Source of the DNA: Eledone cirrhosa
Taxonomy: Eukaryota
DNA length: 64,000 nucleotides
Reading direction: 5' to 3'
Assembly (NCBI GenBank): GCA_964016885.1
Contig: OZ024754.1
Location: 9,486,001 to 9,550,000, forward strand
Translations under genes and position numbers: made by a program
Shown here: piece by piece, positions 1 through 60,950 of the stretch
Position numbering within the stretch: the stretch's first letter is position 1
Layout of the letters: every line of letters begins with the position of its first letter
The notes under the pieces: generated by a model
The model's database searches: none
The model's input: the letters and a program-made list of their open reading frames with translations, nothing else
Told to the model about the DNA's origin: nothing

Positions 1-2565
1 TGGTTCTGGGGTGCTACATGCTGGTTCTGGGATGTTACATGCTGGTTCTGGGGTGCTACATGCTGGTTCTGGGGTGCTACATGCTGGTTCTGGGGTGCTA
101 CATGCTGGTTCTGGGATGTTACATGCTGGTTCTGGGGTGCTACATGCTGGTTCTGGGGTGCTACATGCTGGTTCTGGGGTGCTACATGCTGGTTCTGGGG
201 TGCTACATGCTGGTTCTGGGGTGCTACATGCTGGTTCTGGGATGTTACATGCTGGTTCTGGGGTGCTACATGCTGGTTCTGGGATGTTACATGCTGGTTC
301 TGGGGTGCTACATGCTGGTTCTGGGGTGCTACATGCTGGTTCTGGGGTGCTACATGCTGGTTCTGGGGTGCTACATGCTGGTTCTGGGGTGCTACATGCT
401 GGTTCTGGGGTACTACATGCTGGTTCTGGGATGCTACATGCTGGTTCTGGGGTGCTACATGCTGGTTCTGGGGTGCTACATGCTGGTTCTGGGATGTTAC
501 ATGCTGGTTCTGGGGTGCTACATGCTGGTTCTGGGATGTTACATGCTGGTTCTGGGGTGCTACATGCTGGTTCTGGGGTGCTACATGCTGGTTCTGGGGT
601 GCTACATGCTGGTTCTGGGGTGCTACATGCTGGTTCTGGGGTGCTACATGCTGGTTCTGGGGTGCTACATGCTGGTTCTGGGATGTTACATGCTGGTTCT
701 GGGGTGCTACATGCTGGTTCTGGGATGTTACATGCTGGTTCTGGGGTGCTACATGCTGGTTCTGGGGTGCTACATGCTGGTTCTGGGGTGCTACATGCTG
801 GTTCTGGGGTGCTACATGCTGGTTCTGGGGTGCTACATGCTGGTTCTGGGGTGCTACATGCTGGTTCTGGGGTGCTACATGCTGGTTCTGGGGTGCTACA
901 TGCTGGTTCTGGGGTGTTACATGCTGGTTCTGGGGTGCTACATGCTGGTTCTGGGGTGCTACATGCTGGTTCTGGGGTGCTACATGCTGGTTCTGGGGTG
1001 CTACATGCTGGTTCTGGGATGTTACATGCTGGTTCTGGGGTGCTACATGCTGGTTCTGGGATGTTACATGCTGGTTCTGGGGTGCTACATGCTGGTTCTG
1101 GGATGTTACATGCTGGTTCTGGGGTGCTACATGCTGGTTCTGGGGTGCTACATGCTGGTTCTGGGATGCTACATGCTGGTTCTGGGATGTTACATGCTGG
1201 TTCTGGGGTGCTACATGCTGGTTCTGGGGTGCTACATGCTGGTTCTGGGATGCTACATGCTGGTTCTGGGGTGCTACATGCTGGTTCTGGGGTGCTACAT
1301 GCTGGTTCTGGGATGTTACATGCTGGTTCTGGGGTGCTACATGCTGGTTCTGGGGTGCTACATGCTGGTTCTGGGGTGCTACATGCTGGTTCTGGGGTGC
1401 TACATGCTGGTTCTGGGATGCTACATGCTGGTTCTGGGGTGCTACATGCTGGTTCTGGGATGCTACATGCTGGTTCTGGGGTGCTACATGCTGGTTCTGG
1501 GATGTTACATGCTGGTTCTGGGGTGCTACATGCTGGTTCTGGGGTGCTACATGCTGGTTCTGGGATGTTACATGCTGGTTCTGGGGTGCTACATGCTGGT
1601 TCTGGGGTGCTACATGCTGGATCTGGGATGCTACATGCTGGTTCTGGGGTGCTACATGCTGGTTCTGGGGTGCTACATGCTGGTTCTGGGATGTTACATG
1701 CTGGTTCTGGGGTGCTACATGCTGGTTCTGGGGTGCTACATGCTGGATCTGGGATGCTACATGCTGGTTCTGGGGTGCTACATGCTGGTTCTGGGATGTT
1801 ACATGCTGGTTCTGGGGTGCTACATGCTGGTTCTGGGGTGCTACATGCTGGTTCTGGGGTGCTACATGCTGGTTCTGGGATGTTACATGCTGGTTCTGGG
1901 GTGCTACATGCTGGTTCTGGGGTGCTACATGCTGGTTCTGGGGTGCTACATGCTGGTTCTGGGGTGCTACATGCTGGTTCTGGGATGTTACATGCTGGTT
2001 CTGGGGTGCTACATGCTGGTTCTGGGATGTTACATGCTGGTTCTGGGATGTTACATGCTGGTTCTGGGGTGCTACATGCTGGTTCTGGGGTGCTACATGC
2101 TGGTTCTGGGATGCTACATGCTGGTTCTGGGGTGCTACATGCTGGTTCTGGGGTGCTACATGCTGGTTCTGGGGTGCTACATGCTGGTTCTGGGATGCTA
2201 CATGCTGGTTCTGGGGTGCTACATGCTGGTTCTGGGGTGCTACATGCTGGTTATGGGATGCTACATGCTGGTTATGGGCTGCTACATGCTGGTTCTGGGA
2301 TGTTACATGCTGGTTCTGGGGTGCTACATGCTGGTTCTGGGGTGCTACATGCTGGTTATGGGATGCTACATGCTGGTTCTGGGGTGCTACATGCTGGTTC
2401 TGGGGTGCTACATGCTGGTTATGGGGTGCTACATGCTGGTTCTGGGATGTTACATGCTGGTTCTGGGGTGCTACATGCTGGTTCTGGGGTGCTACATGCT
2501 GGTTATGGGATGCTACATGCTGGTTCTGGGGTGCTACATGCTGGTTCTGGGGTGCTACATGCTGG
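1..2565 (+). repeat. 21-bp minisatellite (GTGCTACATGCTGGTTCTGGG)n, ~120 copies, truncated by window start
   Basis: Directly visible 21-bp period with a few recurring variants (GGGTG/GGATG, CTA/TTA, TCT/TAT). The VLHAGSG and MLVLGCY ORFs are its frames. Confidence 0.98.
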
Positions 2566-2715
2566 AACCCCTTTTCTAGTGGCCCCCTGGTGCATTTGGC
2601 TACCGGTCCAGGCTTCTCTGTCCACCGGACCAAATAGGGTCAACTGTCCAAGTATTATCCCCTCTCTGATAGGTTTGTGGTAGAGCCTGTAGCAGTGGAG
2701 ACCTCTGGTGTGCAG
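2548..2715 (+). mobile_element. CRE-like non-LTR retrotransposon fragment (restriction-like endonuclease C-terminal region), degenerate
   Basis: Manual translation gives W(G/D)ATCWNPFSSGPLVHLATGPGFSVHRTK*GQLSKYYPLSDRFVVEPVAVETSGV. This is homologous to 62110-62392 and 63548-63800, and the WDATC...K..KY...P.AVET.G pattern is typical of CRE-clade RLE domains. Confidence 0.7.
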
Positions 2716-2869
2716 CATAAAACAAGGGCCCTTCTTTTACAGCAGAAAATCAAGCCAATATCCTACCTACTGAATGGGGTACCATTCTGCTTTCACAGAA
2801 TTGGAAAAGTACTTTTTTTCTTTGACAATTTATTGTCATTAGTTTTAGAGTATTAAAATTCATTATTTA

Positions 2870-3900
2870 CATGTTATATATACCTCTATATATTGTATAT
2901 ATATACCTCTATATACTGTGTGTATATATATATATACCTCTATATATTGTATATATATACCTCTATATACTGTATATATATATATATATATATATATATA
3001 TATATATATATCTATATATCTCTATATATATACCTCTAAATATTGTATATATATATATACATCTATATACTGTGTATATATACCTCTATATATTGTATAT
3101 ATATACCTCTATATATTGTATATATATACCTCTATATACTGTATATATATATATATATATATACCTCAATATATTGTATATATATATATACCTCTAAATA
3201 TTGTATATATATATATACCTCTATATACTGTGTATATATACCTCTATATATACCTCTATATATTGTATATATATACCTCTATATACTGTATATATATATA
3301 TATATATACCTCTATATACTGTATATATATACCTCTATATACTGTATATATATACCTCTATATATTGTATATATATATATACCTCCATATACTGTGTATA
3401 TATATATATATACCTCTATATACATATATATATACCTCGATATACTGTGTATATATATATATACCTCTATATACTGAATATATATATATATATATATATA
3501 TATATATATATATATATATATACCTCTATATACTATATATATATACCTCTATATATTGTATATATATATACCTCTATATACTGTATATATATATATATAT
3601 ATATACTTCTATATACTGTATATATATATATACATACCTCTATATATTGTATATATACATATACATACCTCTATATATTGTATATATACATATACCTCTA
3701 TATACTGTATATATATATATATATATATATATATACCTCTATATACTGTATATATATATATACCTCTATATATTGTATATATATACCTCTCTTCCATGTT
3801 ATATATACCTCTGTATACTGTATATATCTGTATATATATATATACCTCTATTCCATGTTATATATACCCCTGTATACTGTATATATATCATTGCTTTATA
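2870..3900. repeat. (TA)n-rich compound microsatellite with recurring TACCTC/TACTG units
   Basis: Directly visible. Confidence 0.95.
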
Positions 3901-3919
3901 TCTGGAGATCTCTCTGCAC

Positions 3920-59130: not shown

Positions 59131-59384
59131 TGTACATTATATATACTTAACCCCTCACCATCAATCCCAAAACTGTGACGGAAGCTCTGTATTTATCCAG
59201 ATGTTTATCTCCACAACCATTAAAGCAATAAAGAAGCTTTACGAATTTACTCGCTCCTTTGCTTTTGTCTGCCTCAACTCTGGTCCGATATATCTAAGAA
59301 CCATTGACGAATTTCTCCAGAGAAATAAACTGCAAGAAACTTTTGGTATTTCACGATACTGTGTGTTTGATCTCCATTGGCTCT

Positions 59385-59875
59385 GACAACGGTTCTAGTT
59401 GATTCGATCAATGGAACAGCCTGCTCATCAAATTAATATGCAAATAGCGGAGCATTCCACTTATGCATGTACCCTTAACGCAATTCTTATTGGGATTCAA
59501 GTGACAGAGTGTGCAATATAACTGGCTCTTTGAATTACAGGGACAACTCATTTTTGGCAGCTGAATGAATTGAAGCAATGTAAAAAAAAAAGTTCTTGCT
59601 CAAGAACATGTGTGGTTGGCAATTGCGATCTAACCACTAAACTGTATGCTTTCACATCCTGGCATTATAATTTGCCATAAAAAGGGCGGTGGATTGGCAG
59701 TATCGGTAGAGGGTCGGACGCCATGCTTTGTAGCATAGAGTTACGACCCTTTAAGATTTTAGTTCAAATCCCGCCGAGGTTGACTTTGCCTTTCATCCTT
59801 ACGGGGTCGATAAAATAAAGTACCAGTAATGCACTGGGTGATTGCTGGCCTTGTACCAAAAGTAGAAAATTATAA
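59385..59875. mobile_element. Old CORE-type SINE (59385-59655, minus) and full SINE-A (59683-59875, plus)
   Basis: CORE-like TTCTTGAGCAAGA on the minus strand. SINE-A runs from GGGCGGTGGATTGGCAG and is flanked by the direct repeat ATTATAATTTGCCATAAAA (59664 and 59868), a likely TSD. Confidence 0.75.
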
Positions 59876-60037
59876 TTTGCCATAAAAACACAAGATACTA
59901 ATACATCTAATTTCATCCTCCGAGTTCTTCATCTTTGTCCACTTATTCCTTCCTTCCAGTTCAACAAACCAAAATGTAAAATGCGGCAGGAATCCATTTT
60001 TCTCAGACACACTCGAAAATGACACAATAACACCTGC

Positions 60038-60950
60038 TTACCACGATAGGCGCTGAGCCGGCTAGACACCACCATAGGCGCTGAGCTGGCTAGACACCAC
60101 TATAGGCGCTGAGCTGGCTAGACACCACTATAGGCGCTGAGCTGGCTAGACACCACCATAGGCGCTGAGCCGGTTAGACACCACCATAGGCGCTGAGCCG
60201 GTTAGACACCACCATAGGCGCTGAGCCGGTTAGACACCACCATAGGCGCTGAGCCGGCTAGACACCACCATAGGCGCTGAGCCGGCTAGACACCACCATA
60301 GGCGCTGAGCCGGCTAGACACCACCATAGGCGCTGAGCCGGCTAGACACCACCATAGGCGCTGAGCCGGCTAGACACCACCATAGGCGCTGAGCCGGCTA
60401 GACACCACCATAGGCGCTGAGCCGGCTAGACACCACCATAGGCGCTGAGCCGGCTAGACACCACCATAGGCGCTGAGCCGGCTAGACACCACCATAGGCG
60501 CTGAGCTGGCTAGACACCACCATAGGCGCTGAGCTGGCTAGACACCACCATAGGCGCTGAGCTGGCTAGACACCACCATAGGCGCTGAGCTGGCTAGACA
60601 CCACCATAGGCGCTGAGCTGGCTAGACACCACCATAGGCGCTGAGCTGGCTAGACACCACCATAGGCGCTGAGCTGGCTAGACACCACCATAGGCGCTGA
60701 GCTGGCTAGACACCACCATAGGCGCTGAGCTGGCTAGACACCACCATAGGCGCTGAGCTGGCTAGACACCACCATAGGCGCTGAGCTGGCTAGACACCAC
60801 CATAGGCGCTGAGCTGGCTAGACACCACCATAGGCGCTGAGCTGGCTAGACGTAGGTATGAGCCTCACGAGATAGAAGGACTCTTCCAGCGCGCGCATCT
60901 ACCTTACTGTCCTCCGGGTAAACGCCTTCTCCATTCTGTCCACCTGGCCA
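60038..60950 (+). mobile_element. CRE-like fragment containing a 28-bp array (~29 copies, 60040-60851)
   Basis: The unit ACCACCATAGGCGCTGAGCTGGCTAGAC matches 63673-63700 and 62244-62270. Sequence after the array continues the CRE homology (...AAACGCCTTCTCCATTCTGTCCAC). Confidence 0.85.

What the first reader, a model, noticed from the sequence alone, without database searches (positions are those of the whole stretch)
1..60950. Most minisatellites in the window are tandem-amplified pieces of transposons
Seen: eight array types have units that are internal segments of four unrelated TE classes. They are 21 bp and 28 bp (CRE-like), 12 bp and 136 bp (LINEs), 84 bp and 49 bp (SINEs), and 44 bp and 73/74 bp (piggyBac MITE). 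In each case TE homology continues past the array edge, and for most an unamplified counterpart is present in this window. Inference: one host or TE-independent process, such as microhomology-primed slippage or rolling-circle repair, is converting arbitrary TE segments into satellites at high frequency. TE-derived satellites are known case by case, but this density across unrelated TE classes is unusual.
Basis: partly seen in the sequence, partly recalled or inferred. Interest (0 to 1): 0.75.

Follow-up and report, generated by a model that had tools for sequence, protein, structure and literature searches.

The report
Transposon-seeded minisatellites at background rate
Nine of the ten kinds of tandem repeat in this stretch are copied pieces of jumping genes, but in a genome-wide sample such repeats come from jumping genes no more often than ordinary DNA does, so this is likely ordinary repeat growth in a transposon-rich, probably octopus-type genome.

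Summary
All eight listed array types exist, and each unit lies in a dispersed element; an unlisted 55-bp array does too, while the 43-bp array does not (9 of 10 types). Read-derived contigs support the two arrays tested (21 and 43 bp). In 1.64 Mb of this genome, 72 of 134 arrays and 434 of 804 matched random positions lie in dispersed repeats (both 54%, OR 0.99). The window is a high outlier (10 of 12), partly because five arrays belong to one TTAA MITE family. Six types expand repeats that elements already carry or reuse (12, 44, 49, 55, 72, 136 bp); four look locus-specific (21, 28, 84, 43 bp). Array density falls from 15.9 to 2.2 per 100 kb from small to giant chromosomes while the repeat share stays flat. 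Variant patterns show stepwise block duplication, not one rolling circle. This fits host VNTR biology acting on whatever DNA is present, a known kind (human TE-derived minisatellites, repeat-bearing MITEs). The scan noted similar cases elsewhere in this genome.

The parts
1..2565 (+). 21-bp array (right part of a 9.7-kb, 460-unit array); the unit encodes the WDATC stretch of an RT-linked, CRE-like C-terminal endonuclease; 3-bp edge repeat TGG; locus-specific
   Evidence: raw-data depth
2566..2711 (+). CRE-like remnant continuing right of the 21-bp array (about 80% to 39 other genomic copies scored)
9994..10114 (+). 5'-truncated SINE (10007-10101) between two copies of a 13-bp direct repeat (likely target-site duplication)
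   Evidence: sequence
10035..10709 (+). 84-bp array, 8 units: SINE 3' end + flank + start of the next SINE; junction found nowhere else in the sample; 3-bp edge repeat GGG
11154..11687 (+). 49-bp array, 10.8 units, from the 46-49-bp internal repeat of the RTE-like 3' UTR / SINE tail; recurrent (13 of 42 sampled loci outside the window have 2 or more units)
15874..16485 (.). 43-bp array, 14 units, in single-copy DNA with no TE match (counter-example)
26356..26770 (-). 3' remnant of a LINE with C2H2 zinc fingers, truncated at the 12-bp array
26741..27762 (-). 12-bp array, 85 units, grown from a 12-bp tandem dimer (CKECGKEC codons) present in 14 of 14 unamplified LINE copies
27760..29092 (.). Left-truncated MITE with 16-bp TIRs and 8-bp TSD (hAT-like) holding the 55-bp array (27798-28953, 21 units); same array at many dispersed copies, 3-29 units; monomer copies also exist (5 of 7 sampled)
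34555..35571 (+). 3' end of an RTE-like LINE holding the 136-bp array (34706-35511, 5.9 units); the same junction filler recurs at 11 of 14 other fetched loci (query biased towards them)
38331..38668 (-). Monomeric counterpart of the 136-bp element
40972..42790 (+). TTAA-flanked MITE (piggyBac-like ends) holding the 44-bp array (40995-42500, 34 units, seeded by a built-in direct repeat of about 20 bp) and the 73-bp array (42561-42781, 3 units) next to the right TIR
46435..46722 (-). 74-bp array in a second MITE copy
51037..51257 (+). 72-bp array in a third MITE copy
51366..51530 (+). Unamplified MITE copy (further ones at 52725-52828 and 53883-54208)
58142..58616 (+). 60/72-bp mixed array in a fourth MITE copy
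60040..60851 (+). 28-bp array, 29 units, at the 5' truncation point of a CRE-like remnant (to 60944); blunt junction; no second array among the 39 other copies scored
62242..62359 (+). Unamplified counterpart of the 28-bp segment (a second at 63673-63790)

Best explanation
The arrays are minisatellites whose units come from transposons at the same rate as background DNA does, and they likely grow by the host's ordinary tandem-duplication and recombination-repair machinery rather than by a transposon-specific process. Step 1, seeding, has two routes. Some seeds are built into elements and multiplied by transposition (12-bp dimer shown; 44-, 49-, 55-, 72- and 136-bp repeats recur at many loci, single versus repeated origin shown only for the shared 136-bp filler, and that by inference). 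Others are one-off local duplications (21, 28, 84, 43 bp), often at an element's truncation point or junction (inferred). Step 2, growth, is by repeated local block duplication (shown from variant order in the 21- and 28-bp arrays). A link to meiotic recombination is inferred from the chromosome-size gradient.
For: No enrichment: 72/134 arrays versus 434/804 length- and chromosome-class-matched random positions have dispersed-repeat homology running past the edge, OR 0.99 at thresholds of 1, 2 and 3 loci (first run 58/110 versus 357/656). At least 52-55% of the window's non-array, non-SSR bases are dispersed repeat, a figure still rising with library size. A non-TE array lies in the window, and 54 of 90 array families in the sample had no TE link. 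Built-in seeds. Density is 15.9, 9.3, 7.3 and 2.2 arrays per 100 kb from the smallest to the largest chromosome class, rho -0.47, p 6e-9 over 138 pieces, while background repeat share is 252/480 versus 29/54. The 21-bp array holds a duplicated 37-unit block (shuffled maximum 17), and the 28-bp array has 22 like neighbours versus 9.1 shuffled. Literature: VNTRs enriched in human subtelomeres with recombination proposed (PMC7608644, passages); minisatellites richer on small chicken chromosomes (PMC4992247, passages).
Against: Inside the window arrays are enriched (10/12 versus 35/72, p 0.03), though five of the ten are one MITE family and the window was picked after the fact. The library is only 0.05% of the genome, so both fractions are lower bounds and old or rare elements are missed on both sides. 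TE-linked arrays are more often one-sided than background (both sides 31/72 versus 302/434, p 2e-5), and 35 of 41 such cases are not explained by SSRs or degenerate units, so element ends or integration junctions may play a specific part. Recombination rate was not measured; chromosome size is a proxy, and contigs C27 and C28 and small scaffolds were not sampled. Seven of nine arrays show no significant variant clustering.
Confidence: 0.72

Rival explanations
1. Arrays are seeded mainly at transposon integration or excision: template jumps at 5' truncation points of retroelements, and gap-repair slips next to MITE terminal repeats, make the first duplication, which the host then expands.
For: The 12- and 28-bp arrays sit exactly at truncation points, the 84-bp array between SINE ends, and the 44- and 72-bp units abut the two TIRs. 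TE-linked arrays are one-sided in excess. In humans younger TEs yield more tandem repeats (PMC3389668, sections read).
Against: There is no overall TE enrichment. Density follows chromosome size, not repeat share. The 12-bp junction lacks the MITE's left part, which fits a later deletion as well. One-sidedness could also follow from deletions accompanying break repair.
Confidence: 0.15
2. One reading: one high-frequency process, microhomology-primed slippage or rolling-circle repair, converts arbitrary TE segments into satellites more often than TE density predicts.
For: 9 of 10 array types in the window are TE-derived; different segments of the same elements are amplified at other loci; 3-bp edge repeats at the 21- and 84-bp arrays.
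Against: No enrichment; six types use built-in or recurrent repeats; the 28-bp junction is blunt; short overhangs over 99 arrays split 24 positive to 25 negative, close to random phase; nested block duplication argues against one rolling circle.
Confidence: 0.08
3. The arrays are assembly artefacts.
For: Only 2 of 10 types were checked in read-derived data, and only in one sample that may be the assembly source.
Against: Unit k-mer depth is 7-10 times flank for the 43-bp array and at least 60 times for one 21-bp variant; structured variant patterns; shared junctions across chromosomes.
Confidence: 0.03

Closest known systems
Human TE-derived minisatellites (Ahmed and Liang 2012, PMC3389668; abstract, introduction, methods and first results read)
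   Same: Genome-wide origin of minisatellites from many unrelated TE classes; a share due to repeats built into the element (LTR12, L1PA: 19%); mostly local expansion afterwards.
   Different: There 23% of 31,472 arrays are TE-derived against 44% TE content; here 54% against 54%. Multi-locus families look commoner here (61 of 166 arrays).
Tandem-repeat-bearing MITEs: DTC84 of the clam Donax (PMC3879986, abstract); Xmix/Xstir and miDNA4 of Xenopus (as reviewed in PMC9659126, passages)
   Same: Non-autonomous DNA elements carrying an internal repeat of variable copy number at many loci, as for the 44/72-bp TTAA MITE and the 55-bp 8-bp-TSD MITE.
   Different: Here most copies are monomeric (72-bp repeat in 6 of 48 sampled copies), the TSDs are TTAA or 8 bp rather than AA, and arrays reach 30-40 units.
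Microhomology-mediated tandem duplication (Wei et al. 2026, PMC13167724, abstract and start of introduction; Haber and Louis model as cited there)
   Same: A single-copy segment duplicates and then expands, independent of what the segment is.
   Different: A general microhomology signature was not demonstrable here; the 28-bp junction has none.
Amphioxus 'mirage' minisatellites (PMC3087553, passages) and subtelomeric or microchromosomal VNTR enrichment (PMC7608644, PMC4992247, passages)
   Same: Arbitrary local sequence turned into unstable arrays; more arrays where recombination per base is expected to be high.
   Different: Mirages are exon-intron junctions; none was shown in this window. 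Recombination was not measured here.

Membership tests
TE-derived minisatellite | Unit at least 70% like, or overlapping, a dispersed element by one period | tested here: met
   9 of 10 types; not the 43-bp array
TE-derived minisatellite | Units closer to each other than to dispersed copies (local expansion) | tested here: met
   Units 90-99% alike by TRF for all but the mixed 60/72-bp array, against about 80% (21 bp), about 85% (28 bp) and about 90% (136 bp) to other copies
   72/134 versus 434/804, OR 0.99
Repeat-bearing MITE | TIRs and TSD around an internal array of variable length at many loci | tested here: met
   TTAA before 28 of 34 left ends; 16-bp TIRs in 5 loci, with an 8-bp TSD exact in L005 and 7 of 8 in L004 and L120; variable copy numbers
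Repeat-bearing MITE | Array-bearing copies descend from one master | tested here: inconclusive
   Tree of 63 copies is star-like: 14 label changes versus 15.7 shuffled, 84 of 500 as low; most share one junction
piggyBac / hAT superfamily | Matching autonomous transposase | not tested
   Names rest on TSD and end motifs (recalled rules)
CRE-clade non-LTR element | RT followed by C-terminal restriction-like endonuclease | tested here: inconclusive
   The family segment matches 87 proteins, many with RVT_1; no Pfam hit for the segment itself; the clade name and motif reading are recalled; no RT tree was built
tRNA-derived SINE (84-bp source) | tRNA-like head with A and B boxes, short, high copy | tested here: inconclusive
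   164 loci in 1.38 Mb; box-like motifs by eye; ARAGORN and Rfam found nothing
Microhomology-mediated tandem duplication | Short direct repeat at array edges beyond chance | tested here: inconclusive
   99 arrays: 24 with +2..10 versus 25 with -2..-10, near uniform phase
Rolling-circle array | Uniform or strictly periodic units from one circle | tested here: not met
   18 variant types and nested blocks in the 21-bp array; polar blocks in the 28-bp array
VNTR | Length polymorphism between individuals | not testable with these tools
   RAD runs of other samples did not cover the loci

The most novel reading that the evidence does not exclude
This genome runs a recombination-coupled minisatellite factory: about 145,000 long, high-identity arrays (about 7% of bases, about 15% on small chromosomes), seven times denser on small than on giant chromosomes, indifferent to whether the substrate is a transposon but firing preferentially at element ends and junctions. 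Its strongly unequal chromosomes would then be a natural test of whether crossover rate drives minisatellite birth.
Probability: 0.35. Interest if true: 0.55.

Novelty: new member of a known kind. Interest (0 to 1): 0.3.

Why it matters
As stated, little: TE-derived minisatellites and repeat-bearing MITEs are well described, and the apparent TE bias disappears against background. What remains of value is a clean set of arrays caught with their source elements, and two measurable side results, the chromosome-size gradient and the excess of one-sided arrays, which could make the origin of minisatellites testable in a cephalopod-type genome. A search for octopus + genome + minisatellite gave 6 papers, none about cephalopod arrays by title and abstract start, within the limits of the held library.

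Tried and rejected
Unmasked self-BLAST was swamped by microsatellites. A first microhomology measure broke at early mismatches and was discarded (part 2); the revised one was inconclusive. My first reading that the LINE continues right of the 12-bp array was wrong; it is a MITE. Hits from searches whose query held a junction or two units over-represent arrays, so family frequencies were taken from the fixed-position sample. A MITE tree did not separate single from repeated origin (copies without a recognisable right end were left out, and two of its 18 'array' labels, L208 and L119, are motif miscounts). ARAGORN, Rfam, Pfam and PDB gave nothing for the SINE or the CRE-like pieces; the protein atlas was not available. 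RAD-seq runs of other individuals held only multi-copy reads. In some searches arrays within 120 bases of a piece end were dropped (134 of 166 kept); the 21-bp array is among them, and the 12-bp array scored as a false negative. A further 200 kb of sample could not be fetched, so power stays at 134 arrays. Supplements of the papers were not read.
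Full report
Setting. The window is G000:C14:9486001-9550000 in a 3.0-Gb genome. An octopus-type animal is inferred from recalled SINE likeness, one named homologue and earlier scan notes; this was not tested further. About 18% of the window is microsatellite-like and 17% lies in 13 minisatellite arrays of ten types.

Observation. All eight listed types are present at high unit identity, and each unit belongs to a dispersed family. 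The 21-bp unit encodes the WDATC stretch of an RT-linked C-terminal domain; the array is 9.7 kb and 460 units in all. The 28-bp unit matches two unamplified copies in the window. The 12-bp unit lies in a zinc-finger LINE end and the 136-bp unit in an RTE-like 3' end (the RTE label is recalled from the motif). The 84-bp unit covers a SINE end, the 49-bp unit the repeat of a LINE 3' UTR and SINE tail, and the 44- and 72-74-bp units lie in a TTAA-flanked MITE. Homology is one-sided for the 12- and 28-bp arrays and weak on the left for the 21-bp array. Counterparts inside the window exist for 6 of 8 types. Read-derived contigs of one sample show raised unit depth for the 43-bp (7-10 times) and 21-bp (60 times or more) arrays, so these two are not assembly inventions; the sample may be the assembly's own.

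The decisive test. I fetched 200 kb of flanks and 138 ten-kb pieces at fixed positions on 25 long contigs, called arrays with one rule (period 10 or more, 85% matches, 2.8 copies, 100 bp, not SSR-like), and asked whether dispersed-repeat homology covers the unit and runs 20 bases past an edge. The same was asked of random positions matched for unit length and chromosome class. The result was 72 of 134 arrays against 434 of 804 controls, OR 0.99, unchanged at thresholds of 2 or 3 loci; outside the window 62 of 122 against 399 of 732 (first run). The window itself gives 10 of 12 against 35 of 72 (p 0.03), but five of the ten are one MITE family and the window was chosen after the fact. At least 52-55% of the window's other bases are dispersed repeat. 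Its array count is also within range: resampling small-chromosome pieces reaches 13 arrays per 64 kb in 8% of draws. Both fractions are lower bounds because the library is 0.05% of the genome.

Not one process at the seeding step. The 12-bp unit is already a tandem dimer in 14 of 14 unamplified LINE copies. The 136-bp repeat with the same junction filler occurs at 11 of 14 other fetched loci with differing 5' ends (the query favoured them, and both copies in the fixed sample were monomers), which points to one duplicated master that retrotransposed (inference). The 49-bp unit has two or more copies at 13 of 42 sampled loci, the 44-bp unit at 13 of 38, the 55-bp unit at 2 of 7, and the 72-bp unit at 6 of 48. 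A tree could not tell single from repeated origin for the 72-bp repeat. By contrast, the 84-bp junction, the 28-bp array and the 21-bp array were found only here. Other copies of the same elements carry arrays at other segments, and 54 of 90 array families had no TE link, so arbitrary DNA is also a substrate.

Growth. Variant order shows a duplicated 37-unit block in the 21-bp array (shuffled maximum 17) and polar runs in the 28-bp array (22 like neighbours against 9.1); seven arrays were uninformative. This fits repeated local duplication and not one pass round a monomer circle. Edge microhomology was 3 bp for the 21- and 84-bp arrays and 0 for the 28-bp array; over 99 arrays there was no excess. 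Array density falls from 15.9 per 100 kb on contigs under 40 Mb to 2.2 on those over 200 Mb (rho -0.47), while the dispersed-repeat share is flat (252/480 against 29/54). The same trend is reported for chicken microchromosomes and human subtelomeres (PMC4992247; PMC7608644), so a recombination-linked host process is the likely driver; recombination was not measured here.

Left unexplained. Among TE-linked arrays only 31 of 72 have homology on both sides, against 302 of 434 controls; 35 of 41 one-sided cases are not due to SSRs or degenerate units. Arrays thus favour element ends or rearrangement junctions, which could reflect integration or deletions made during break repair.

Comparison. TE-derived minisatellites from many classes are documented genome-wide in human (23% of 31,472, PMC3389668) and case by case in a review (PMC9659126); repeat-bearing MITEs are known in molluscs (PMC3879986); duplication of arbitrary segments is general (PMC13167724; PMC3087553). 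By similar criteria this genome has 1.6-4.8 arrays per 100 kb by chromosome class and 7.8 in the window against about 1 in human, so it is richer but not of another kind. Earlier scan notes on this genome describe similar single cases; they were leads only.

Verdict. Observation partly confirmed; the claim of unusual TE bias is not supported; new member of a known kind; interest 0.3.

Noticed in passing
window 4513-7362 (+), 3' UTR to about 7910: A 949-residue LINE frame with endonuclease, RT and a PHD finger after the RT (Pfam); it appears frameshifted near its C-terminus. A decayed second copy lies at 20718-22508 (84%).
   Followed up: partly
138 fixed 10-kb pieces across G000: Minisatellite density falls about sevenfold from small to giant chromosomes while dispersed-repeat share is unchanged; extrapolation gives about 145,000 arrays and 7% of bases.
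   Followed up: partly
window 26741-28953: Two unrelated arrays (12 bp in a LINE, 55 bp in a MITE) lie 35 bp apart across a junction that lacks the LINE's upstream part and the MITE's left end.
   Followed up: partly
window 62397-62716: Another short TIR element holds a 31-bp duplication (2.3 copies, 62424-62494), perhaps an array at its earliest stage.
   Followed up: no
window 18136-18464, 20043-20173, 20322-20425, 20568-20707, 57770-57962: Several near-perfect local inverted repeats (arms 52-132 nt, 87-98% complementary), possibly small foldback elements or snap-back duplications.
   Followed up: no
G000:C14 downstream flank, about 75-79 kb past the window: A 311-bp unit in two back-to-back inverted arrays, 99-100% identical, with a relative in L103; resembles the retrozyme arrays noted earlier in this genome.
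   Followed up: no
L043, L055, L059, L082, L128, L132, L142: Seven of the first 118 fixed 10-kb pieces were wholly or almost wholly one array, each with a different unit of 26-84 bp.
   Followed up: no
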